The position numbers and the translations under genes are program-made. Below are positions 1,909 to 40,313 of a stretch of 64,000 nt of DNA, in pieces. The stretch lies in assembly GCA_965113315.1 (NCBI GenBank), contig OZ220367.1; one strand, 5' to 3'. The notes under the pieces are model-generated. The model searched no databases and was not told the DNA's origin. It saw nothing but the letters and a program-made list of their open reading frames with translations. Source of the DNA: Podarcis vaucheri (lineage: Eukaryota). Each line of letters begins with the position of its first letter. Positions within the stretch are counted from its first letter, which is position 1.

Positions 1909-2695
1909 TGTCACGGCTGCCTCAGGTCCCAGCTCACAAAGGACCAACACCAGTCTCTCTTTATATACAAAGGTCTTTATTGAAGTCCATTAGTTGTTCC
2001 ACAGTAGCGGCGCGCAGCCGTACGTCTGTTAGCTTAGACCGTAGAAGTCCCTTCTGAGTCGGTCCCCCCCCCTACACCAGCTTAAGATGCTGGCTTTGCT
2101 CCACCTCCTCCTGTCCTTCCTTTTCCGCAGGGTCTTTCTGCCCGCTGGAGTTCCGCCCCTCCTAGATTCTTCTGACGCTGAATCTCCCGACGGCTCTCCC
2201 TCCCTCCTGCGGGCTTTGGGACCTGGCTCCTCCCCCGGGCTCTCCGTTTCCCCGCGCGCTTGCACATTTGAACTTGGCGCGCGTGCCCAGTTTCCAACCC
2301 TTCTCCTGATGGTAACGTCACTCCTCTCACTGCTCCCCTCCCCTTCTGGGAGAGTGGCTTGTTCTGACCTCTCCTCCCTTCCAGCCAACGGAGCTGCTTC
2401 TCCTGACACACTGGAACTTCCCCCCCCTTCGCTACGCTCTGGAGGGGAAGCCGGCTTTGATCTCCAGCTGCTGCTTCGGGATTCCCTGTTGGCTCTTTCC
2501 CCCTGATGAGTCCCCCCTGGGGCTCCTTTCCCCCTGGCTACAGGCGCCCCCTCCTGGGAATCCCCTGATTCGCTGGAAAAGCTCATGGAGTCCCTTGGGC
2601 CCCAGTCCTCCTCCTCCTCCTCGCTGTCCTCGGACTCTGCCCAATGGTCCTCCCTCTCCTGCCTCCCATGTGCCTCTGCCCCTGAACCCCTGACA
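1909..2695 (-). mobile_element. Solo LTR (787 bp) of a Gypsy-like LTR retrotransposon
   Basis: TGTCA...TGACA termini, 5-bp TSD CCCAT (1904-1908, 2696-2700) and AATAAA on the minus strand at 1976-1981. The frame is open from 2695 to 2029 and resembles the LTR-encoded tail of the full element. Confidence 0.88.
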
Positions 2696-4430: not shown

Positions 4431-4726
4431 ACATTCCCATGAAATAAGGGGGTATATGGGCTCCTTCTATCCTTGGAAGGCATTTGATCAAGTAGAGGAA
4501 TCCCACTGACAGAAGGTGGCAGCAAGACTTTTGCCAACTCCCCCTGTAGCCCCCAGCATCACCACCTATAATGTTCAGAACTCCAAGACAGATTTCCTTT
4601 TATAATCATTTAAATAATTTAGTATTTAAATTAGTAAATTTACAATTCTAGGATTCTATGTATTAAATTTACTAATTTAATTGGAAGGGGCCCTGAGGGT
4701 CATCTAGTACATTAATTAATGATAAC

Positions 4727-5179
4727 TGTCAAGGGATGGTTAGCTGCTTGTGCTTAAAATTGTGCCCCTTCAGAGTTTGTGCGACCCCACAAACCTCTGT
4801 GTGTGACAGAGCTCCTCAGACATGTCTGCTCTAGTCACTAGTAGAGTCTGACAGTGGCTGTCTGCGGAAGCGCTTCCAGCAAAGAAGTTCCTTAACGGAA
4901 ACACGTCTCCTGGACTCACGACGTGGCAGCTTCCGGCGCAGCATGGGTCTCCCTGCAGTTGCTTCTGACACCTCCCCGCTATTTTCGCTCGAAGTGTCTC
5001 TCACCCCTTTCTCTCCCCTGCTGCTTCCTGCCTGGGCTGCTGCGTCTCTCTCAGCATTACTGAGATCCTCCTCCAGAGACCCCGCGCTCCCCCTGCTGGT
5101 CCCTGCTTTGGCTGTTGACTCTCTCCCAGTCTCTGGGAGCCTTACCACTTCCCTTTCCTCCGATGTCAGTTCCCTGACA
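4727..5179 (-). repeat. 3' LTR
   Basis: Direct repeat of 9836-10288; no difference found by eye. Confidence 0.95.
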
Positions 5180-6675
5180 TCCACCTCCCCTCCAGGGCCC
5201 CCCTCTCCCCCGCCCCTACTTTCTCCTCTGGGCGGTGAGGAGCTGAAACCCCTAAAAGAATCCTCTTCATCTTCAGACGTCTCGAACAATTCCCTCCATC
5301 GGTCTTCGTTCCGACTCGCTGAATCCTCCTCCACCTCGGAATCAGCGAACCCCTCCAACTCTTCTTCGTCGTCGGTGGTGGCGAAGTATTCCCTCCGGAA
5401 CCTCGCCACTGGCTGGGGTTTTCTAGGGAATCTCTGATGAAAAGTTTCAATCAAAACCTCGTCATCTACCTCCTCTGCCCTGACCCAGGTGTTTTCCGAC
5501 TCCGGCTCCCCTTCCCACATTACCAAATACTCTACTTGCTCTCCCCTCCACCTGGAATCGAGAATCTCCGCTACATGGTAGCTGTGTTCTTTTTCTTCCA
5601 TAGCTGGTCCCCTATTGACCCTCCCCTCTCTGTCCCCTATATACGGTGACAGCAATGATCTGTGGAACACTGGGTGCAACTTCATGTGGTTCGGTAACCG
5701 GAGTCTGAAAGCCACTGGGTTGACCTGTTGCGTGACTTCAAATGGGCCCAGTCTTTTGGGTCTTAACTTCTTACAACCTCCTTTAAATGGTAACCCTTGG
5801 GTGGACAGCCACACCTGGTCCCCCACCCTAATGCTTTCCCCTTCCCTTCTGGTTTTGTCTGCCTGCCTCTTATATTCCTCCTTCGCCCTGTTTAAATTAA
5901 GTTGGAGTTGGCGATGGATCGCTTCCATTTCTTCAACGAACTGTTCTGCGGCAGGAACGCTCCAGTTCTCCCCCTCCCCCCCTGGGAAGGCTCGGGGATG
6001 ACACCCGTGATTGGCCAAAAAAGGGCTCATCCCCGTGGACACGTTCTCTGCATTGTTATAGGCAAATTCTGCCAACGCCAGCTTCTCCACCCAATCATTC
6101 TCTCTGTCATTCACATAACACCTCAAATATTGCTGGAGGACACCATTAGCTCTTTCCGCCTGCCCATTGGTTTCTGGATGACGGGCAGTGGAAAAATTTA
6201 CCTCTACATGCAATAAGCTCATGAGCTTCCTCCAGAACCTGGAAGTAAATTGTTTCCCTCGGTCCGAAACCACCCTCAAGGGGGCACCATGCAACCTAAA
6301 CACATTTTCCACAAACAATTTAGCGGTTTCTTCTGCTGTGACCGCATGTGAGCAGGCTATAAAGTGGGCCATCTTGGTTAACAGGTCTACCACAACCATA
6401 ATGGCTGTCTTCCCTTTGGACCTGGGCAGATCAGTCATGAAATCTATTGCCACTGCCTCCCATGGTCTTTCCGGCGTGGGTAGTGGTTCTAATAAACCTG
6501 CCGGTGCCCGCCTCTCCCCCTTGGCTCGTTGACATCGGTCACACCCTCTCACATATTCACGCACATCTTCCCTGACCTTGGGCCACCAGAATTCCCTGGT
6601 AACCAGCCACATGGTTTTGTGTTGCCCAAAATGCCCTGCTGTGGGGCTATCGTGCAGTTGCTTGAGTACCTTTTC
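4831..6675 (-). CDS. pol: Pol C-terminal part: integrase (HHCC, DDE, GPF) plus chromodomain plus LTR-encoded tail
   Basis: HDSPTAGH...CDRC zinc motif; AIDFM/VSDRG/NGQAERAN catalytic triad; RLGPFEV; chromodomain YHVAEILDSRW...YLVMWEG...NTWV. It is out of frame with upstream pol at about 6675. Confidence 0.92.
   Translation of the reverse strand, partial: EKVLKQLHDSPTAGHFGQHKTMWLVTREFWWPKVREDVREYVRGCDRCQRAKGERRAPAGLLEPLPTPERPWEAVAIDFMTDLPRSKGKTAIMVVVDLLTKMAHFIACSHAVTAEETAKLFVENVFRLHGAPLRVVSDRGKQFTSRFWRKLMSLLHVEVNFSTARHPETNGQAERANGVLQQYLRCYVNDRENDWVEKLALAEFAYNNAENVSTGMSPFLANHGCHPRAFPGGEGENWSVPAAEQFVEEMEAIHRQLQLNLNRAKEEYKRQADKTRREGESIRVGDQVWLSTQGLPFKGGCKKLRPKRLGPFEVTQQVNPVAFRLRLPNHMKLHPVFHRSLLSPYIGDREGRVNRGPAMEEKEHSYHVAEILDSRWRGEQVEYLVMWEGEPESENTWVRAEEVDDEVLIETFHQRFPRKPQPVARFRREYFATTDDEEELEGFADSEVEEDSASRNEDRWRELFETSEDEEDSFRGFSSSPPRGESRGGGEGGPGGEVDVRELTSEEREVVRLPETGRESTAKAGTSRGSAGSLEEDLSNAERDAAAQAGSSRGEKGVRDTSSENSGEVSEATAGRPMLRRKLPRRESRRRVSVKELLCWKRFRRQPLSDSTSD
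5180..5194 (-). promoter_or_regulatory. Polypurine tract (plus-strand priming)
   Basis: Minus strand reads GGAGGGGAGGTGGA immediately before the 3' LTR TGTCA. Confidence 0.8.
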
Positions 6676-8837
6676 CCTTCAGGTATGTATAACGCTCCCT
6701 TGTAGTACAACGCCCCGTTTCTCTCCTCAAAACCCCCGGGTTTGTCTCCCTCCCTCCTGAGACCCCTGAGTTTGTCCTGGGCGTATTCATCCTGCACCGT
6801 TCCCTCTACCAGTTCCCTTTGCCCCACCAAAGCCGCCCCACACACCCAGCGGTCCTCGGGAATAACATGGGTCTCTTCGGGTGCACCCTCTCCCTCCAAA
6901 TATTCAGGTTTGCGTGAGAGAGCGTCCGCCCTAACGTTCTCCGGGCCTGGTACGTAACAAATCTCAAAGTTAAATTTGGAGAACTCCTGGGCCCATCTCA
7001 ACTGCCTTTGGTTGAGCACTCGCGCAGTTCTCCAATACTCTAGATTCTTATGGTCCGTGCACACTTGCACCTTCTGTTGTGCACCAATTAGTAGATGCCT
7101 CCATCTCCGGAAGGCCTCATAAATCGCAAGAAGTTCCCGGTCGTGCACCGTGTAGTTTCTCTCAGATTTGTTCAGCTTTCGCGAAAAGAAGGCACACGGT
7201 CGCCACTCTGACCCCTCCTTCCCCGGCTGCAGAAGAAGCACCGCCCCTATGGCTCTGTCCGAAGCGTCTGTTTCGACCCTCAGCTTTTTTTGTAAATCCA
7301 CATGTAGAAGTTGTTCGTCAGAGGCGAAGGCCCTTTTCAGTTCCTCAAACGCTCGCTCCGCCTCCCCCGTCCAAACAAACTTCTTTTTGCTGCTGAGACA
7401 GTCCGTGATGGGCGCCGTCAGGTGGGCGAAGTTTCGGATGAACTTACGATAAAAGTTTCCAAACCCTAGGAACCTCTGCACATCCTTCTTGGTTTTGGGT
7501 GTTTTCCATTCCAGCACCGCTTGAACCTTGCCGGGGTCCATGGCCAACCCCTTGTCTGACAAGCGGTACCCCAGGAATTCCACCTCCTTGGTATGAAACT
7601 GACACTTTTCCAGTTTCACCCACAGTCTGTTGGCTTGCAGCCTGCTCAACACTTCTCTGACATCTCTCACATGTTGCTCCTCATTCTCCGAATACACCAA
7701 CACGTCATCTAAGAAGGCCACGCAATTCTTGTAGAGCAAAGGCCCCAGTACATGGTTCATAAAGGCTTGAAAACACGCGGAGCCTGTTTGTAATCCAAAA
7801 GGCATAACGAGGTATTCAAATGCCCCCAAAGGGGTGAACATGGTGGTCTTCCATTCATCCCCTTTCCTTATACGTATCAGGTTGTACGCCCCCCTTAGGT
7901 CCAGCTTTGTAAAAATCTTTCCTTTTCGCACCCTGGTCAAAATATCATCAATCCTGGGCATAGGAAAAGCCGCCGGCTCTGTCACTGCATTTAGGGCCCG
8001 AAAGTCACATACCAGCCTCGGCTTGTCCGTGTTTTTTTTATCCACAAAAAACACTGGGCTACCCCCCGCTGCCTTGGACTCTCTGATGAAGCCTCTCTTC
8101 AGGTTCTTGTCAATGAACGCTCGCAACTCCTGCATCTCCCTGTCTGACATGGCATACAACTTGCCTACAGGAAGCTGTGCTCCAGGGAGTAAATTGATCT
8201 GGCAATCAAAGGGCCTATGCGGGGGTAGTTGGTCCGCTTCCTTCTCGCTGAACACGTCGCTGAGATCAGCATACTGTGGTGGCACCTTCCCCTTCTCCAT
8301 CACTTCCGTCCCTGCTAGGGTGGCTTGGGCCCCTGCTGACCCCTTTTCCGCCCTGCAGTGTTCTAAGCAGTGTGCGGAACCGAAGGAAACCACTCTTTGA
8401 TGCCAGCCCACCAGCGGATCATGTAGGGCTAGCCAGCTCATTCCCAAAATAATGGGAGCGCCTCCCAAGGTGGCCACATTAAACGCTATCAGTTCTGTGT
8501 GCCTTGCCACCCTCATTATCATTGGGACGGTCTGCAAGCTGACGCCTCCTCCCAACAGTTCCCTGCCATCAATCGTGGTCACCTGCAGGGGGTTGCTTAA
8601 AGGGATAGTCTGTATCTGGTGTTCAGCAGCAAACTCCTTGCTCATGAAATTGCAGGAGCTGCCTGAGTCCAACAGCGCCTTTATTTTTAGGGGGTGTCCA
8701 TTTTGCAGCTCTAGCGACACTTCAATCACTAGAGCAGGTCGAGGAGCTTCTGGCACTGGCACTTGGGGAAGGGGCACTTTCACTGCTCTTTGGCCTGGCT
8801 GCAGTGCCCTGCTGGCAACCAGGCGTTGGCTTTTACC
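6676..8837 (-). CDS. pol: Pol N-terminal part: aspartic protease, reverse transcriptase, RNase H
   Basis: ALLDSGS protease; KLDLRGAYN, VMPFGL and FLDD RT motifs; ETDASD, RELLAI and TDHKNL RNase H motifs. It lies in the -1 frame relative to gag. Confidence 0.93.
8772..8837 (-). promoter_or_regulatory. Gag-pol -1 programmed frameshift signal (G_GUA_AAA plus H-type pseudoknot)
   Basis: Heptamer at 8831-8837 and a 6-nt spacer. Stem 1 is GCCUGGUUGC/GCAGCCAGGC; stem 2 is GGGCACU/AGUGCCC. Confidence 0.8.
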
Positions 8838-9790
8838 TGCTCCGTTTCTCCCTGCTCTTCCCCCTCAACAGCTCCCACCATCCCTTGCCATTCCTTCCTC
8901 TGGGGGCAGACTCTGGCAAAGTGGCCTGGCTGTTGGCAGAGATAGCATTTCCGGGCTCCCTTTCCCTCCTTCTTCGCCCCCTCACTGGGCTTTGAAACTG
9001 CGCGCGCGCGGGCTGTTCCGATTTCCATCGGCTCTGCCGGCGGGAAAGCTGGCTCAGGAATGTCTGGAATGCGTAACTCCTTCCAACGTTCCCCTCTCCC
9101 TTCCCGCCTCTCCAAGGCTCTTGCCTCCTGGCGCGCTCCAATGGTCAGCGCAGATTTGGTCAGCTGATCCATAGACCCCGCCCTGGGGCTCCTGGCCAGC
9201 TCGTCTTTCACAGCTGAAGAAAGACCTTCTTCAAATAGCATCTGAATGGGTGCCGCCGATAAATCCCACCCCAATCTGTGAATCAGCATGGTAAATTCAG
9301 TCCAGTACTCACGGACAGATCTGCTTCCCTGCTTGCAAGCCATTAGCTGTCTGCGTACCAACCCTTCCTCAATATCGCTGGAAAACATGATATCCATTGC
9401 ACGAAAGAATTTCATAGTGTCCTTTAGGATATCGTTGTGCGTTGCCATCAGGGGTCGAACCCAGTCCCGCGCCCCCTTCTCAAGATGCCCAATTACGAAC
9501 GCAACTCGCGATTCCTCATCAGGGAACTCATCAAACTGCACATTCAGAGCATATTGCATCTCAGTCCTAAAGGCATGGTAATCCTTGGGGTCCCCCCCAA
9601 ACTTCTGCACCAATCCTGGTACCTTTCTGGGGAACTGAGTGGTTCTCCCCTTTTTGTCAGCATCCTGAGCCCTTCTCTCCTCGAGCCTCGCCGTCTGCAG
9701 CGCAAGTTGGACCTCCAGAGCTTGATACCTTTCTTCCAAGCTTGGACCAGCTCCAACCCCTGCGTCTCCGGTTCCGACTGGGTTGCTCAT
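8780..9790 (-). CDS. gag: Gag (336 aa), capsid plus CCHC zinc knuckle
   Basis: Intact ORF with the retrotransposon gag motif CKQGSRSVREYWTEF and zinc knuckle CYLCQQPGHFARVC. Confidence 0.93.
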   Translation of the reverse strand: MSNPVGTGDAGVGAGPSLEERYQALEVQLALQTARLEERRAQDADKKGRTTQFPRKVPGLVQKFGGDPKDYHAFRTEMQYALNVQFDEFPDEESRVAFVIGHLEKGARDWVRPLMATHNDILKDTMKFFRAMDIMFSSDIEEGLVRRQLMACKQGSRSVREYWTEFTMLIHRLGWDLSAAPIQMLFEEGLSSAVKDELARSPRAGSMDQLTKSALTIGARQEARALERREGRGERWKELRIPDIPEPAFPPAEPMEIGTARARAVSKPSEGAKKEGKGARKCYLCQQPGHFARVCPQRKEWQGMVGAVEGEEQGETEQVKANAWLPAGHCSQAKEQ

Positions 9791-9822
9791 GATGCTTTCT
9801 CCTGCACAGGCAGCGTACAGAG

Positions 9823-9833
9823 ACTGTCAGACT
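9823..9833 (-). promoter_or_regulatory. Self-priming primer-binding site
   Basis: AGTCTGACAGT lies 2 nt after the 5' LTR and is the exact reverse complement of LTR positions 9954-9964. There is no TGG tRNA-type PBS. Confidence 0.8.
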
Positions 9834-9835
9834 GC

Positions 9836-10288
9836 TGTCAAGGGATGGTTAGCTGCTTGTGCTTAAAATTGTGCCCCTTCAGAGTTTGTGCGACCCCACA
9901 AACCTCTGTGTGTGACAGAGCTCCTCAGACATGTCTGCTCTAGTCACTAGTAGAGTCTGACAGTGGCTGTCTGCGGAAGCGCTTCCAGCAAAGAAGTTCC
10001 TTAACGGAAACACGTCTCCTGGACTCACGACGTGGCAGCTTCCGGCGCAGCATGGGTCTCCCTGCAGTTGCTTCTGACACCTCCCCGCTATTTTCGCTCG
10101 AAGTGTCTCTCACCCCTTTCTCTCCCCTGCTGCTTCCTGCCTGGGCTGCTGCGTCTCTCTCAGCATTACTGAGATCCTCCTCCAGAGACCCCGCGCTCCC
10201 CCTGCTGGTCCCTGCTTTGGCTGTTGACTCTCTCCCAGTCTCTGGGAGCCTTACCACTTCCCTTTCCTCCGATGTCAGTTCCCTGACA
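9836..10288 (-). repeat. 5' LTR
   Basis: Direct repeat of 4727-5179. Confidence 0.95.
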
Positions 10289-11658
10289 ATAACTTTAATA
10301 TTTCTTTAAAAATATTAATAATTATTAATTTAAACTTAAGTGTTTCTTTCTAAAATAAAATAAAAAATTACCCTGGCCTTCCTCTCATAAGAGGCCAGGG
10401 CATCAAGTAACAAACATGACACACAAATGAATATCAGAAAACCAAACTAGTACAGAGAGGTACAGGACATTGTTTAGAGGCTTGCAGATTGCTGGAGGGT
10501 GCAAGGGACTGTGGTGAGGACCTGTAAAAGTTGCTTTCTCTCCCTCTCTCTCCACCACTCTCCACCTTTCACTAGTGAAAGCATCCCCTGAGCAGGAACT
10601 CTTCTCAGGCAACTTTCCTACTGTTGGAGCGGGGTGGGGGGGAATAGATCCAAGTCTATTTGGTATGCATCTAGATTCTTGTGCAATGTTGTTTCTGAAT
10701 GGTTCTAAAGGCAGCCGGAAAGTAAACAGGTTAATTTAAAACAAAACAAATCTCAAAACCCATTGTAACACCCACAACACAATAGCCCTCAGTCCCCTGG
10801 CTGATGGACAGGGCCATTATACATTTCCATTCTCCTCTCCATTGCCCAGACACCTGAGGGTTGGAACAGAGAGTTCTTTCAAAAAATGAGGGGACAATGT
10901 AAACTCTCTGAAGGTGCTCCTTCTCTGGCTGGTGGATGTGGCTAGGCTATTCTTCACCTTGCCATGATGTCCTTCTTTACAGATAATGCATCCACCCACT
11001 CAGAGTTTTAACTTCTAGAGACTTCAGAAACATAAAACTGTGAGGAATGACAAAACTAGCAGCAACAATAAAAAATCACCAAGGCATCACAAACGGGCAA
11101 GAATGGGGACAGTGACTAGGATTCTGAGTTTGGAACCACTGGAAGGAGGGGGGGAACCCTGCCTGAAGGTCCAATCATCAGAGACTCCAATCATGCAAGT
11201 GGAAGAGGGGACAGATATTACTTTTGTTGGATCCCTCTTCCTCCTGAAGTCCTGTCTGCCCCCTAACAGTTGTGCTAGAGGGTTGGGGACCCTCCAGAGC
11301 TGCATGATGAGTGATGCTGTGGACTACAGGATAAAGAGGGGACTCAACAAAAATTGCAGCCTCCTCTTCCACCCCCACCTTTGCTGGTAGAATTGTCTGC
11401 CAGAATCTTGGTTCTATCAATGAGACCTTCTATTCATGGATGCCTAATTAGTATTCAAGTCAATGGTTTTATGAATAAGAACCAGAAGATAGAAACTGTT
11501 CTTGGTAAAGAGTGACTGTCAGGGTGTATGTCATTTTGCCTGAATGGGATAGGCAGACTTTGCAAAGGAAGCAGCATCATGATTTTCTCATTACATACCG
11601 TACATCTCTTTACCTCACACCTGGCAAAATGGCTGAAACACAGGAAAAGTCCTTAGGA

Positions 11659-18468: not shown

Positions 18469-20227
18469 GTAAATGACTTTAAAAATAAATAAATCAGGAA
18501 TTTCTGATACAGTTGTTTTAGAGAGGAGTTAATAATTTATACAGTTGTACCTCCTTTTTAGTACCACGTTGTTAGTTGAGTTTCACATAACAGCAGTTCA
18601 TTTAGAAGACTTCCCAAAAACAACCATTGGTTATTTCCATTCCTGCTTAGCATTCTAACCAAGCTCGTGAGGTCATTGTCTTTAAACCTCGAACCATCTA
18701 ATAAACAGACTACCCCTGGTTCACACACACATCCTTTCTTTAATAATCAAAATTCACAAGTACCCCTAATGAAGCTCCTCATTATCAATATATTTGAAAA
18801 AAGATAACCATACCTGTATATACACCACAATCTAGTGAAGATAACCCTTGCTCGCATGCCATTCACTTTCAGAAAACCACTATGCATGCAGTTCCACTTG
18901 CTACACAGCTGCAGCCAGCATTTGGCATTCTCAACACAGTTCCTGCTGCTGGGCTTGGAATGCATGGGCAGTGCCAAAGAGTAGAGACTGCCTGTGGTGT
19001 CAGGTTTGGGGGAACCCTAGATTGAAGACTCCATATTCTCCTCCTCTTAAAAAAAAGCAAGCAAACAAATATAGCAGTGCTATCAATGCCAATAGCACAA
19101 TGATCTGATTGGCAGGTATGTATGCAAGCAGATACTCACCTACAGCCTGCTACTGCATTCGTGAGTCTAGAGACTGGCAATTAGGAATTTAATCAAGCAC
19201 CTGGTGGTCCTCACTACATGATCAGCATGCCACAAAAATACCCTATGATTCACAGGACTTAGAAGCCTGATGCAGTCTGAACTGATGGGTAAAGAGTTCC
19301 TAAAGCAAGGGAGGCTCTCTTGCAGCGTTGCACCACAAATGGCATAAAAAGCAGGACCCAAGGTTTGGCTAGACAGGAGCAGGATGATCTGTGGTTCTCG
19401 TGTTGTCACAGATTTAGCACTACCCCGCACAATCTCTGAACTCGGCTTGCAGCCTCATTGCTTCCAAACCTTCAATAAATGGAGAATTTACAGTTTCCTT
19501 AGGCAGCTCATTCTGCTGCTGAACTGGTCTTAAGAGTTATGAACACAGCATATATTTATGTTCCAGTCTTCCCCCTCCCTTTCAATACCCTTTTGTGTCC
19601 TTGAATAAGACTCCGAGGGCTCATCCCAACAAGCCTTTGCATGCAGACAGGATCTTAGTCACTGGCATCACTAAGCATACTTGTGCAGCTGGCTGCTATT
19701 CGGAGTTTAAAACCATGCACGCCCTGCCACCTCATTGCTGGAGCTGTGGTCTGAAGCCCTTTTCTGTAGCGTGCAAACATAGCAGTGTAATAAAAACATT
19801 TTCTTGAAAGAGGAGGGCAACTCCCCTGGCTGTACCAGGTGTAGAACCTCACTCTGCTGACCTCCTAAGAACCACCCTGCTGAATCAGACCAAATATTTA
19901 TGCATTCCAGCACTACATTTCCAGCAGAGCCCAACCAGGTGCTTCACAAGCGGAGACAAAAAGCAATAGCCACCTCTAGTTGTTAATCCCAAACAACTGC
20001 TATCCATCATGTCTAATTGCACCCTTTCTACATGCTCCACAGTTACTCAAATGTGATAGATGAGTGTGCATCCAGAAACAGTTTCTGGATTCCTTCTGTT
20101 CACATAAATTAGGGGGATGTGACTCTTGATTATAGGGGTAACTATTGAGTTATTGTTGTTATAGTTCTGTATGAATAGCTACGATTGTTAAACCAACTTA
20201 GACCATTTCTTTCCATCATTCCCATAG

Positions 20228-21270
20228 ATCATCATCAACATCTGGGTCAAGGCAACAGTATTTTAGCCAACTGTTCACAAGATCTACCTGGGAATTCTAC
20301 CAGTAATGAATTCACAACCATTGTCTTACCTGTGCTTTACCTCGTCATATTCCTGGCTAGCATCTTACTGAACAGCTTGGCTGTATGGATTTTCTTCCAC
20401 ATCAGAAACAAGACCAGCTTTATCTTTTACCTCAAAAACATTGTGGTTGCGGACTTGATGATGACCCTGACATTTCCATTTAAAATCATCCAGGACTCAA
20501 GACTGGGGCCATGGTACTTCCATTTTTTCCTGTGCCGGTATTCGACCGTTTTGTTCTACGCCAACATGTACACTACGATTGTGTTCCTTGGGCTCATTAG
20601 CATCGATCGTTATCTGAAAGTGGTCAAACCCTTTGGGGATTCCAGGATGTACAGCATCAGGTTCACCAAGATTCTGTCTGCGTGCGTTTGGATTGTCATG
20701 GCATTTTTAGCCTTGCCAAATGTGATCCTTACAAATGGTCATGCAACTAGGAAAAACGTAGGCGACTGCTTAAAGCTAAAGAATTCCCTGGGAGTCAAAT
20801 GGCACAGAGCTGTCATTTACATCAACAACGGCATGTTTGTCGTTGTACTGATAGTATTGATAGGATGTTACATTGAAATATCAAAGTATATCTACAAATC
20901 AAGCAAACAATTTACCAGTCCTTCAAGTCGCAAACGGAAGCACAACCAAAGCATAAGGGTGGTTGTAGCAGTGTTTTTCACGTGTTTCTTGCCATATCAT
21001 TTGTGCAGAATACCTTTTATTTTTGGCCACCTAGATAAACTTTTGGATGAATCGGCACACAAAATCCTGTACTACTGCAAGGAAGTGACACTTTTCCTTT
21101 CTGCGTGCAACGTGTGCCTAGATCCAATCATCTACTTTTTCATGTGTAGATCATTTTCAAGAAGGATGTTTAGGAAATCAAACATGCGAACGAGGAGCGA
21201 AAGCATTAGATCGCTTCAGAGTGTTAGAAGATCAGAGGTGCGAATATATCATGAATACGTTGATCTGTGA
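20228..21270 (+). CDS. GPR87: G protein-coupled receptor 87, main coding exon (358 aa after splicing)
   Basis: 7TM protein with [46 protein letters not shown] and [19 protein letters not shown]; acceptor CCCATAG at 20227. Confidence 0.96.
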
Positions 21271-29835: not shown

Positions 29836-30397
29836 TCATCATTTGTCATCTGCTGGTAGAAGAGGTGATGGTTTGGTCTTGCATTGGACCCATGGTCCAA
29901 TTTAGTACACCCATCAAACATTCGCCAACAGCTGCTCAGCTTCACTGGTTATGTTATTCTGTGTGTTCTCTTATACCTCCCTTATACAGCAATAGTACTC
30001 AAACTTCTTCATAGTAGCAAATATCAAGACAATATTCATGCTTAGGCTCCCAAAAAACGCCCAGAAAGTTTGCACCTGTGGATGTGAAACCTACACTGGC
30101 TGCAAAGTACATTATATTTCAGCATACTGAACAAACATTGCTCTGTGCATTTTTGCCTCTGGTCATACCCACAGCAGGCAAATGCCACCCCTGGAAAGTT
30201 CCCAAGAATGGCTGAAAAAGGCTCCCAATTCCTGCTCTTGCGGAAACATATTTGATTTAGCTCCATGCAAAAATGTTCCTGAATGTGGTCTTCATGTGCC
30301 ATATAGGAAGATACATGGGGGGATTCTGCTGCAGGTGGATAACTCTTGTGGATAACTCTTTCTTTCTCTGCTCACAGGAACTGAAAATGCACTAGAG

Positions 30398-31411
30398 ATG
30401 CCTAATTCAAGCACTCCTCTAGGAAACTCCTGCAGCTTCAATGAGATAATAAGAAAACAAGTTCTTCCAGTTGCCTATGGTCTGATCTTTCTAGGAGGAA
30501 TCCTGTTGAATGGGGTGGCAGCCTGGGTCTTTCTGTACATTCCCAGCAAGACAAGTTTTATCGTCTATCTCAAGAACATTGTGGTTGCTGACCTCATCAT
30601 GAGCTTAACTTTCCCATTTAAAGTTTTCGCCGATTCAGAAATTGGATCTTGGCGGCTCAGTGTTTTCGTCTGCCGTTTTTCAGCAGTCATATTTTACCTA
30701 AATATGTATATCAGCATAACACTGTTTGGTCTCATAGGCTTCGACCGATGCTACAAAGTTGTGAAGCCTCAGTTCATCACATCTTTCCATACTGTTCGAT
30801 GTAGCAGATGTATCTGTGTAGCCGTGTGGGCACTTCATATAGTGATATCACTTCCCAATACAATTTTAACCAATCAACATCCTACCAAAAATCTTTCGAA
30901 GAACTGTGTGAACCTCAAAAATGAACTTGGAGTCCAATGGCACAAGGCTTCGAACTACATCTGCTTAGGAATTTTTTGGACTGTCTTTTTACTCCTAATA
31001 GCCTTTTACAGTTCTATAGCAAGGAAAATATATCTATCCCACCAAAAATTCAGGAAAAACTCCAAACGGTCAAGGAAAAAAACCAATCGGAATATTTTCA
31101 CCATCATGCTTGTATTTATCATTTGCTTTGTCCCATACCATGTTGTAAGAATCCCATACACATTGAGTCAAACTGCTTCACATCATTATAACTGCCTAAC
31201 AAAAGAGGTGTTGTTTTACCTAAAGGAGCTTTCTCTGCTCCTGTGTGCTGCAAATGTTTGCCTTGATCCTATTATTTATGTATTTCTTTGCCAACCCTTC
31301 AAGGAAAGGTTGTACCAAAAATTGCACCTCAAGTTGAAGGTGTCTGAGGAATTAGAAAACTCTAGATCTAAAAAGTCAAATGTGATTTGTGAAACAGTAG
31401 TTATTCCATAA
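30398..31411 (+). CDS. P2RY14: P2Y purinoceptor 14 (UDP-glucose receptor), 337 aa, single coding exon
   Basis: 7TM protein with [53 protein letters not shown] and CLDPIIY. Acceptor CTCACAG at 30377; syntenic between GPR87 and GPR171. Confidence 0.95.
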   Translation: MPNSSTPLGNSCSFNEIIRKQVLPVAYGLIFLGGILLNGVAAWVFLYIPSKTSFIVYLKNIVVADLIMSLTFPFKVFADSEIGSWRLSVFVCRFSAVIFYLNMYISITLFGLIGFDRCYKVVKPQFITSFHTVRCSRCICVAVWALHIVISLPNTILTNQHPTKNLSKNCVNLKNELGVQWHKASNYICLGIFWTVFLLLIAFYSSIARKIYLSHQKFRKNSKRSRKKTNRNIFTIMLVFIICFVPYHVVRIPYTLSQTASHHYNCLTKEVLFYLKELSLLLCAANVCLDPIIYVFLCQPFKERLYQKLHLKLKVSEELENSRSKKSNVICETVVIP

Positions 31412-39177: not shown

Positions 39178-39347
39178 TTCTTAACAACAGTCACAGATTT
39201 GGTTAGGTATTGTGCGACACTATTGCTTACCGAAAGACAGTTTATTTGTTTGTTTATTTCTCTCTCTCTCTCTCTCTCTCTCCCAACTCCAGGTTTTGTC
39301 TCTCAGAAAAGGTGCACATACTTTGCCTCTCCTGTGAATCATTTAAG

Positions 39348-40313
39348 ATGCGCATAACCAATTCCTCAGGTTGCAATGTTTATTCTGCCATGGAGCCATT
39401 TCCTTATTTTTATTACTTGATCTTTCTTATTGGGTTCATCGGGAGCTGCTTTGCCCTGTGGACCTTCCTGAAGGCAGAGCAACATCGCAAATGCATGAGC
39501 GTCTACTTAATTAACCTGCTAACAGCAGACTTTTTGCTAACCCTTGCCTTGCCGGTGAAAATCGCAGTTGATTTAGGAGTTGCTCCCTGGAAACTGAAAA
39601 TATTCCACTGCCAAGTCACAGCTTGCCTCATCTATATCAACATGTACCTATCCATCATATTCTTGGGATTTGTAAGCATGGACCGTTGCCTTCAGTTAAT
39701 ACACAGCTGCAAGATCTATCGCATCCAGGAGCCTGGCTTTGCTAAGATGATATCAGCAGTAGTCTGGGCAATGGTTCTATTTATCATGGTGCCAAACATG
39801 GCAATTCCAATCAAAGAAATCAAAGAAACGGCCAATGTGGGCTGTATTGATTTCAAAACAACGGTGGGAAGAGATTGGCATGTTTTCACTAATTTCATTT
39901 GTTCTGCCATATTTCTCAATTTTTCCGCCATAGTGCTTATTTCTAACTTCCTTGTGATCAGATTACTCTATCGAAACAGATACAATGTGAGCTACGACAA
40001 TGTGAAGAAAGCTCTGGTGAACATACTCTTAGTCACTGCAAGCTACATAATATGCTTTGTTCCTTACCATATTGTCCGGATCCCGTATACTCTGAGTCAA
40101 AGCAAAGCTATAACCACAGACTGCTCTCTCAGGCGAACGCTCTTCAAAGCAAAAGAATCCACCCTGCTACTTGGCGTGTCAAATCTCTGTTTTGACCCAA
40201 TTTTGTATTTTTACCTTTCAAAGACATTTAGACTGAACGTGACAAAGGCTTTCGGGTCGCGTAAAGAAAATAATACTCCCCCAGAAAATGCATTAACAGA
40301 GACAGCACTTTGA
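39348..40313 (+). CDS. GPR171: G protein-coupled receptor 171, 321 aa
   Basis: EPFPYFYYLIFLIG, YLINLLTADFLLTLALPVKI, VAPWKLKIFHCQVTAC, KIYRIQEPGFAKMIS and AKESTLLL. ATG at 39348 follows acceptor CTCCAG (39292); the listed ORF start at 39210 is intronic. Confidence 0.95.
   Translation: MRITNSSGCNVYSAMEPFPYFYYLIFLIGFIGSCFALWTFLKAEQHRKCMSVYLINLLTADFLLTLALPVKIAVDLGVAPWKLKIFHCQVTACLIYINMYLSIIFLGFVSMDRCLQLIHSCKIYRIQEPGFAKMISAVVWAMVLFIMVPNMAIPIKEIKETANVGCIDFKTTVGRDWHVFTNFICSAIFLNFSAIVLISNFLVIRLLYRNRYNVSYDNVKKALVNILLVTASYIICFVPYHIVRIPYTLSQSKAITTDCSLRRTLFKAKESTLLLGVSNLCFDPILYFYLSKTFRLNVTKAFGSRKENNTPPENALTETAL

What the first reader, a model, noticed from the sequence alone, without database searches (positions are those of the whole stretch)
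9823..9964. tRNA-independent self-priming: 11-nt PBS complementary to the element's own LTR
Seen: the sequence after the 5' LTR (sense GC-AGTCTGACAGT) has no TGG tRNA-acceptor complement, but it pairs perfectly over exactly 11 nt with LTR sense ACTGTCAGACT (9964-9954). Known: S. pombe Tf1 primes reverse transcription with the first 11 nt of its own mRNA, and this was proposed for vertebrate sushi-group elements. Inference: the transcription start is at about 9964. In the 3' LTR the same 11-mer also encodes P-L-S-D-S of the Pol tail, so it has a dual function.
Basis: partly seen in the sequence, partly recalled or inferred. Interest (0 to 1): 0.7.

Follow-up and report, generated by a model that had tools for sequence, protein, structure and literature searches.

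The report
Lizard retrotransposon primes its own copying
A young jumping gene, likely from a wall-lizard relative, has no tRNA primer site; its primer site instead matches 11 bases of its own end repeat and the two change together across related families, so it likely starts copying from its own RNA, a trick already known in yeast and predicted for this group, here with the twist that the same bases also lie in its protein-coding frame.

Summary
Observation confirmed. The element is a 5.6-kb Ty3/gypsy chromovirus with identical 453-bp LTRs. The 11 bases starting 2 nt after the 5' LTR are the exact complement of LTR bases 9964-9954, with no TGG. Covariation is strong: 24 of 41 related elements have a perfect 11-nt match at the same 2-nt offset, in 11 different sequences; 7 more match over 10 nt; 0 of 41 control flanks reach 10. 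A second U5-leader helix also covaries. The start site was not measured; it is inferred from an initiator match (28 of 39), a TATA box at -30 in a sister family, and a C that would face the RNA cap (39 of 39). Self-priming is the published hallmark of the Tf1/sushi group, so the mechanism is not new, and this scan noted it before in mosses. Not found in my searches: Pol reads through the whole U3 and across the primer under purifying selection (pN/pS 0.27), and a sister family's U3 tail carries an HMGN-like RRSARL motif.

The parts
9836..10288 (-). 5' LTR, 453 bp, TG...CA; U3 predicted 10288-9965 (324 nt), R-U5 predicted 9964-9836
   Evidence: the U3/R border is inferred
10289..10293 (-). target-site duplication GTTAT, upstream copy
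9954..9964 (-). 11-nt predicted self-primer, the exact complement of the PBS; first base A is the predicted transcription start
9962..9967 (-). initiator-like GCCACT (fits BBCA+1BW) centred on primer base 1
   Evidence: consensus from the abstract start of PMC5287114
9852..9862 (-). U5 strand of the second helix
9834..9835 (-). 2-nt spacer GC between LTR end and PBS
   Evidence: offset 2 in all 24 perfect cases
9823..9833 (-). primer-binding site, 11 nt, no TGG
9822..9822 (-). C right after the PBS helix, present in 39 of 39 elements; would face the m7G cap of the primer
   Evidence: the cap pairing is inference
9804..9814 (-). leader strand of the second helix (pairs with 9862-9852, 10 of 11 bp here)
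8780..9790 (-). gag from its first ATG (336 aa): retrotransposon capsid and CCHC knuckle
   Evidence: only PDB match is PEG10, E 4e-4
6549..8864 (-). pol, first part (protease, RT, RNase H), in the -1 frame to gag; this copy has a frame break near 6670
4831..6678 (-). pol, second part: integrase, SH3, chromodomain, then an acidic tail that reads through all of U3 and stops 14 nt after the primer copy
5180..5193 (-). polypurine tract next to the 3' LTR
4727..5179 (-). 3' LTR, identical to the 5' LTR
4845..4855 (-). 3' LTR copy of the 11-mer, inside Pol codons P-L-S-D-S (base 1 is a third codon position)
4722..4726 (-). target-site duplication GTTAT, downstream copy
1909..2695 (-). solo LTR (787 bp, TSD ATGGG) of a related family whose full copies have a different PBS, exactly complementary to 2055-2045 of this LTR

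Best explanation
This Ty3/gypsy chromovirus has a primer-binding site that exactly matches 11 bases of its own LTR, and it likely primes reverse transcription with them as yeast Tf1 does: the RNA is predicted to start at 9964, its first 11 bases would fold back onto the site 2 nt behind the LTR, and the element's RNase H would cut after base 11 to free a primer end. SHOWN: the element's anatomy; the exact complement; the fixed 2-nt offset; co-change of both sites in 11 sequence variants; a second covarying U5-leader helix; no tRNA 3'-end match; the 3' LTR copy of the primer lies in the last Pol codons. INFERRED from conserved signals: start at base 1 (initiator match, TATA at -30 in the sister family, a C opposite the cap position). 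TAKEN FROM Tf1, not tested: the cut between bases 11 and 12 and extension from it. INFERRED: copying of the primer during plus-strand synthesis would rewrite the PBS, which explains why the PBS tracks a primer that drifts mostly at third codon positions.
For: Covariation: of 41 elements with a defined 5' LTR end, 24 have a perfect 11-nt complement, all at offset 2 and none at offsets 0, 1 or 3-11; 7 have a perfect 10-nt one. The 24 hold 11 different sequences that differ at up to 9 of 11 positions and lie on separate branches of an RT tree. Controls: 0 of 41 3'-LTR flanks and 1 of 205 internal positions reach 10 nt. In 24 aligned close relatives the primer helix is 98.1% paired with two-sided changes at 5 of 11 pairs, the U5-leader helix 95.1% with 3 of 11; 37 cells against 7.7 in shuffles, 0 of 500. 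Geometry: the primer's 3' end points at the spacer and the LTR end, as a minus-strand primer must; pair probability is 0.97 or more at 10 of 11 positions. Start signals: BBCA+1BW on base 1 in 28 of 39 against 0.5-3% per base elsewhere in the LTRs; ATAAAA at -30 in all 7 sister-family elements; A at base 1 in 11 of 11 variants although it is a four-fold degenerate codon position in most; C after the helix in 39 of 39 while the genomic base before the primer is never G. Group context: chromodomain integrase, CCHC Gag, -1 frame, PEG10-like capsid; self-priming is the group's hallmark (passages).
Against: No start site, cleavage or cDNA end was measured. The window's family has no TATA box at -30 and no AATAAA or ATTAAA in the predicted R-U5, so its promoter and 3'-end signals are unexplained. 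10 of 41 elements lack a perfect match: 7 have one mismatch or wobble, 1 has two, 1 has three, 1 could not be read; their median LTR identity is only a little lower (96.8% against 97.9%). The third duplex of the Tf1 'pretzel' is only 4-6 bp and its LTR-end strand barely varies. The U5-leader helix beat shuffles (at most 9 of 300) in 5 of 11 elements tested and not in the 6 others, all from more distant families. The elements are related, so counts are not independent and the shuffle numbers are not probabilities. All comparisons come from one genome. The tRNA sample covers 10 anticodons only.
Confidence: 0.9

Rival explanations
1. The two sites pair, but the 11-mer is not the RNA's 5' end: transcription starts further upstream in the LTR and the helix either primes with a longer 5' extension or serves as a structural or packaging signal.
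For: Covariation shows pairing, not where the RNA starts; the helix forms equally well in folds started at 9974, 10000 or 10288. The window's family lacks a TATA box.
Against: The complement stops sharply at 11 (or 10) nt in all 12 variants, always at a pyrimidine-purine step, always opposite a C that does not match the genomic base before it. The sister family has ATAAAA exactly 30 nt upstream.
Confidence: 0.06
2. A host tRNA fragment or other small RNA primes at this PBS, and the LTR match is secondary.
For: The primer shares 7 nt with host tRNA-Lys(TTT). Some copia elements use tRNA halves (passage in PMC6317226). Only 10 anticodons were sampled.
Against: TGG in 0 of 41; no PBS variant matches a sampled tRNA over more than 8 nt. 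A genome-wide pattern for the 11-mer ahead of a T-loop gave 10 hits against 17 for the control pattern, and ARAGORN called 0 of the 10 a tRNA. Eleven different PBS sequences would each need a host RNA, yet each matches its own LTR.
Confidence: 0.02
3. Chance, or a leftover duplication of the LTR's terminal inverted repeat (the 11-mer contains TGTCA and the PBS TGACA).
For: The motif TGTCA recurs several times in this LTR, and 0.3% of shuffles give such a match.
Against: Families whose PBS has no likeness to the LTR end keep a perfect match at the same offset.
Confidence: 0.01

Closest known systems
Tf1/Tf2 of Schizosaccharomyces pombe (and Tj1, Tosmo1-3, Tcry1)
   Same: Chromovirus; an 11-base LTR segment complementary to a PBS just behind the 5' LTR; at least one extra helix next to the PBS (passages of PMC7175516; bioRxiv 10.1101/2022.12.06.519325; PMC4600332).
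   Different: Here Gag has a CCHC knuckle and pol is in the -1 frame, unlike the fission-yeast elements. Start site and cut are shown for Tf1, only inferred here. Only two of the three 'pretzel' duplexes are supported. Pol reads through U3 and over the primer.
Vertebrate Tf1/sushi elements (sushi-ichi, Amn-ichi/ni/san; GyDB V-clade), Butler et al. 2001
   Same: Vertebrate chromodomain Ty3/gypsy elements with predicted self-priming (known here only through citing passages). Gag's only PDB match is PEG10 (its sushi-ichi origin is from the listing of PMC4340606). Nearest proteins are lizard and fish elements.
   Different: No named sushi element was in my tree, so exact placement is untested. I did not see Butler 2001 itself, so I cannot say whether it showed covariation. 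Most homologs end soon after the chromodomain (71 of 120 with a tail of 60 aa or less, 16 longer, 33 not scored by a rough motif count).
Plant CRM group A chromoviruses
   Same: [quoted passage not shown]
   Different: CRM elements are primed by tRNA-Met and the CR motif replaces the chromodomain; here the chromodomain is kept, the LTR-coded tail is extra, and it runs past the predicted start site.
HMGN nucleosome-binding motif RRSARLSA
   Same: The U3-coded Pol tail of the TATA-bearing sister family contains RRSARL in 17 of 27 copies in the Pol frame; three Anolis proteins end in R[RQ]S[AL]RI. HMGN binds the nucleosome acidic patch through this motif (PMC12487698, passages).
   Different: A six-residue likeness only; binding untested. 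The window's own family has a different basic tail without this motif.

Membership tests
Tf1/sushi group of chromoviruses | Ty3/gypsy order Gag, protease, RT, RNase H, integrase between LTRs | tested here: met
Tf1/sushi group of chromoviruses | Chromodomain at the integrase C-terminus | tested here: met
   PF00385, E 7.7e-12, above cut-off
Tf1/sushi group of chromoviruses | CCHC Gag and -1 gag-pol arrangement (non-fission-yeast members) | tested here: met
   zf-CCHC above cut-off; ORF ends give the -1 frame; no canonical slippery heptamer found in 8760-8900
Tf1/sushi group of chromoviruses | PBS complementary to 10-11 bases of the element's own LTR, not to a tRNA 3' end | tested here: met
Tf1/sushi group of chromoviruses | Three-duplex 'pretzel' around the PBS | tested here: inconclusive
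   central duplex and U5-leader duplex covary; third duplex 4-6 bp without usable variation; U5-leader helix not above shuffles in 6 of 11 elements tested
Tf1/sushi group of chromoviruses | [quoted passage not shown] | not testable with these tools
   no run on record as RNA; contigs cannot show starts; indirect signals
Tf1/sushi group of chromoviruses | RNase H cut after base 11 releases the primer | not testable with these tools
   shown for Tf1 (passage in PMC7175516); needs a bench assay here
Tf1/sushi group of chromoviruses | RT-IN phylogeny groups with named Tf1/sushi elements | not tested
   the tree holds only elements of this genome; affinity rests
tRNA-primed LTR retrotransposons | PBS starts with TGG 0-5 nt after the LTR and matches a tRNA 3' end | tested here: not met
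   0 of 41
tRNA-half-primed LTR retrotransposons | PBS matches an internal tRNA segment | tested here: inconclusive
   at most 7 nt for this PBS among 27 tRNA sequences of 10 anticodons; 0 of 10 pattern hits are tRNA genes; host set incomplete

The most novel reading that the evidence does not exclude
Squamate chromoviruses have turned their whole U3 promoter into coding sequence for a long acidic integrase tail that ends in a basic chromatin-tethering or nuclear-import motif (HMGN-like RRSARL in one lineage, a basic L-C-W motif in the window's lineage). In the window's lineage the frame runs past the start site, so 11 bases serve at once as initiator, capped self-primer and Pol codons, and the cap is read or paired by a fixed C behind the PBS.
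Probability: 0.3. Interest if true: 0.65.

Novelty: new variant of a known kind. Interest (0 to 1): 0.42.

Why it matters
Self-priming has been shown at the bench for yeast Tf1 and, as far as the passages I read go, only implicated for vertebrate elements. This genome gives a comparative proof of pairing (11 co-changing variants) and single-base predictions of the start site in young, high-copy families (2,366 first-look candidates for this LTR), so the vertebrate case can be tested with one CAGE or 5' RACE data set. The fixed C behind the PBS is a testable hint that the primer is capped. The U3-coded tail under selection points to a second targeting or import module beside the chromodomain. 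The priming mechanism itself is not new, which caps the interest.

Tried and rejected
RNA evidence: no RNA holder listed; contigs of 4 of the 9 listed runs cover the stretch but cannot show a start; neither counts for or against. Whole-leader folding energy is not unusual (z -0.18), so stability alone is no evidence. A hairpin in R just after the stop codon: 83.8% paired, no two-sided change, 124 of 500 shuffles as high; not supported. A search with the last 56 residues of Pol found nothing at E <= 1 among 37 candidates, though three proteins end in the same L-C-W-type tail. DNA around non-lizard homologs was not obtained, so covariation across species is untested. Rows dropped: 60 regions were hand-picked for diversity from 298 listed matches (20 of 69, 20 of 86, 10 of 79, 10 of 64); with the window that is 61; 14 had no LTR pair and 6 had no definable 5' LTR end, leaving 41; 2 of these (one unreadable, one decayed) were left out of the counts of 39. 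PBS of one element against the LTR of another with a different PBS: 31 of 1,492 pairs matched; not inspected one by one. Papers not held: Lin and Levin 1997 and 1998, Atwood-Moore 2006, Esnault and Levin 2015; Butler 2001 was not seen; no supplements were opened. Searches that found no report of lizard self-priming elements or of this U3 read-through: (0 papers); most subscription papers and Repbase or Dfam entries are not covered.

Full report
What is there. The finding lies at the 5' end of a 5,562-bp LTR retrotransposon on the minus strand. Its LTRs (10288-9836 and 5179-4727) are 453 bp, identical, bounded by TG and CA and flanked by the duplication GTTAT, so the insertion is young. It encodes a CCHC Gag, then protease, RT, RNase H, integrase, an SH3 domain and a chromodomain. 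Pol is in the -1 frame to gag and, in this copy, has a frame break near 6670. The best protein match is from Podarcis muralis at 72%, so the host is likely a lacertid lizard (inference). The LTR has 2,366 first-look candidates in the 1.6-Gb genome.

The observation. After the 5' LTR come GC and then AGTCTGACAGT (9833-9823), the exact complement of 9964-9954, 129 nt before the LTR end; the match is exactly 11 nt. Only 65 of 20,000 shuffles of the LTR give such a match. [quoted passage not shown]

Covariation. A solo LTR of a second family lies in the window at 2695-1909. Of 30 loci fetched with it, 15 continue into a PBS; it is a different 11-mer, and its exact complement lies 147 nt before that LTR's end in all 15. 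I then searched the genome with four diverged integrase proteins, fetched 60 hand-picked regions out of 298 matches, and kept 41 elements, the window's included, with a definable 5' LTR end (14 had no LTR pair, 6 no clear end). Of the 41, 24 have a perfect 11-nt complement, always at offset 2; 7 (one sister family) have a perfect 10-nt one; 7 have one mismatch or wobble, 1 has two, 1 has three and 1 could not be read. The 24 hold 11 different sequences, up to 9 of 11 positions apart, spread over an RT tree of 39 rows. Controls reach 10 nt in 0 of 41 3'-LTR flanks and 1 of 205 internal positions. In an alignment of the 24 closest elements the primer helix is 98.1% paired with two-sided changes at 5 of 11 pairs. 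The rows are related, so these are not independent events, but no other reading links two sites 130 nt apart in this way.

Flanking structure. Tf1 needs three duplexes, the 'pretzel' (passage in bioRxiv 10.1101/2022.12.06.519325). Here a second helix joins U5 (9862-9852) to the leader (9814-9804): 95.1% paired, two-sided changes at 3 of 11 pairs. It beat shuffles in 5 of 11 elements tested and not in 6 from more distant families. A third duplex with the LTR end is only 4-6 bp and cannot be judged; an R hairpin was not supported.

tRNA rival. TGG lies within 8 nt of the LTR in 0 of 41 elements. Against 27 tRNA sequences of 10 anticodons from this genome the window's PBS matches at most 7 nt and no variant more than 8. 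A genome-wide pattern for the 11-mer ahead of a T-loop gave 10 hits against 17 for the control, none called a tRNA. The tRNA set is incomplete.

Start site: indirect only. No run on record as RNA was listed. Primer base 1 sits in a BBCA+1BW initiator match in 28 of 39 elements, the window's included (consensus from the abstract start of PMC5287114). The 7 sister-family elements lack that match but have ATAAAA at -30. Base 1 is A in all 11 variants. The base after the PBS helix is C in 39 of 39, while the genomic base before the primer is C (31) or T (8) and so cannot pair with it; a cap G on an RNA that begins at base 1 could. That RT can copy a cap into C is recalled, not read here. Against: the window's family has no TATA box and no AATAAA or ATTAAA in R-U5.

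Dual use. In 30 of 32 elements outside the sister family the longest open frame upstream of the 3' LTR primer copy puts primer base 1 at a third codon position; in those the stop follows 6-8 codons on. U3 lengths run from 209 to 655 nt, and 19 of 28 are multiples of three. Over the last 28 codons of 12 representatives pN/pS is 0.27, against 1.80 and 1.34 in the other frames; over all of U3 in 14 elements it is 0.54, falling from 0.73 to 0.32 toward the end (uncorrected, related rows). Three of the five co-changing primer positions are third codon positions. So the primer drifts within protein constraint and the PBS follows. Whether the tail stays on the mature integrase is unknown. The sister family also reads about 330-350 nt into U3 but stops 12 nt before its TATA box; 17 of 27 copies carry RRSARL in the Pol frame, and three Anolis proteins end in a similar motif. 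RRSARLSA is the HMGN nucleosome-binding motif (PMC12487698, passages); this is a six-residue likeness, untested.

Mechanism. Most likely (0.9): transcription starts at 9964; bases 1-11 pair with the PBS, helped by the U5-leader helix; RNase H cuts after base 11; RT extends through the spacer and U5-R; after strand transfer the first 11 bases are restored from the 3' LTR copy; plus-strand copying of the primer would rewrite the PBS. The pairing and its conservation are shown; the start is inferred; the cut is taken from Tf1 (passage in PMC7175516); the rewriting is inference (the title of Atwood-Moore 2006, seen in a reference list, says the Tf1 primer is not removed).

Comparison and novelty. 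Self-priming is described as the common feature of the Tf1/sushi group in fungi, vertebrates and non-seed plants (passages of PMC6317226; the bioRxiv preprint; PMC4600332; PMC3601003). The element meets every group feature I could test; start, cut and placement beside named members are untested. The core finding is therefore a new member of a known kind, and two earlier notes of this scan report the same layout in mosses (unchecked). The read-through of all of U3 and over the primer has a partial precedent in plant CRM group A (PMC3059260, passages); I found no report of it in vertebrate chromoviruses, which miss most subscription papers and repeat databases, and I did not see Butler 2001. For that overlap I class it as a new variant of a known kind, interest 0.42.

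Noticed in passing
window 2695-1909 (-): Solo LTR (787 bp, TSD ATGGG) of a related chromovirus family; accounts for the 297-aa ORF at 2029-2922, which is largely the LTR-coded Pol tail.
   Followed up: yes
L101-L110, L161-L180 (sister family, 3' LTR): Pol reads 330-350 nt into U3 and ends after an HMGN-like RRSARL motif, 12 nt before the TATA box, in most of the 17 of 27 copies that keep the motif in frame; an 18-nt length variant keeps the frame. Anolis proteins P0019, P0021 and P0022 end in R[RQ]S[AL]RI.
   Followed up: partly
G000:C41 (41 Mb contig): Holds 30 of the 40 listed matches to the second family's LTR and a large share of the integrase matches, but 0 of 40 for the window's young family; it may be a non-recombining, W-like chromosome (inference).
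   Followed up: no
G000:C41:36761197-36776862: Five LTR copies of the second family at a spacing of about 3,720 bp: a head-to-tail array of shortened elements that share LTRs; several pairs at the same spacing lie at 34.3-37.4 Mb.
   Followed up: no
L084: RT groups with L082 and L085, but its PBS begins like the distant sister family's, and its Pol stop codon lies inside the primer copy; possibly a recombinant.
   Followed up: no
window 9964-9836 (-); alignment A1: No AATAAA or ATTAAA in the predicted R-U5 of the window's clade (24 elements) or of the sister family, while the 8 elements of the other clades have AATAAA; how these RNAs end is unexplained.
   Followed up: no
window 20179-21270, 30356-31411, 39207-40313 (+): Three single-ORF rhodopsin-family 7TM receptor genes in tandem; the element sits about 10 kb upstream of the first.
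   Followed up: no
L151-L160: Several of the 10 pattern hits look like tRNA-derived SINE heads (my reading from recall); ARAGORN calls none a tRNA.
   Followed up: partly
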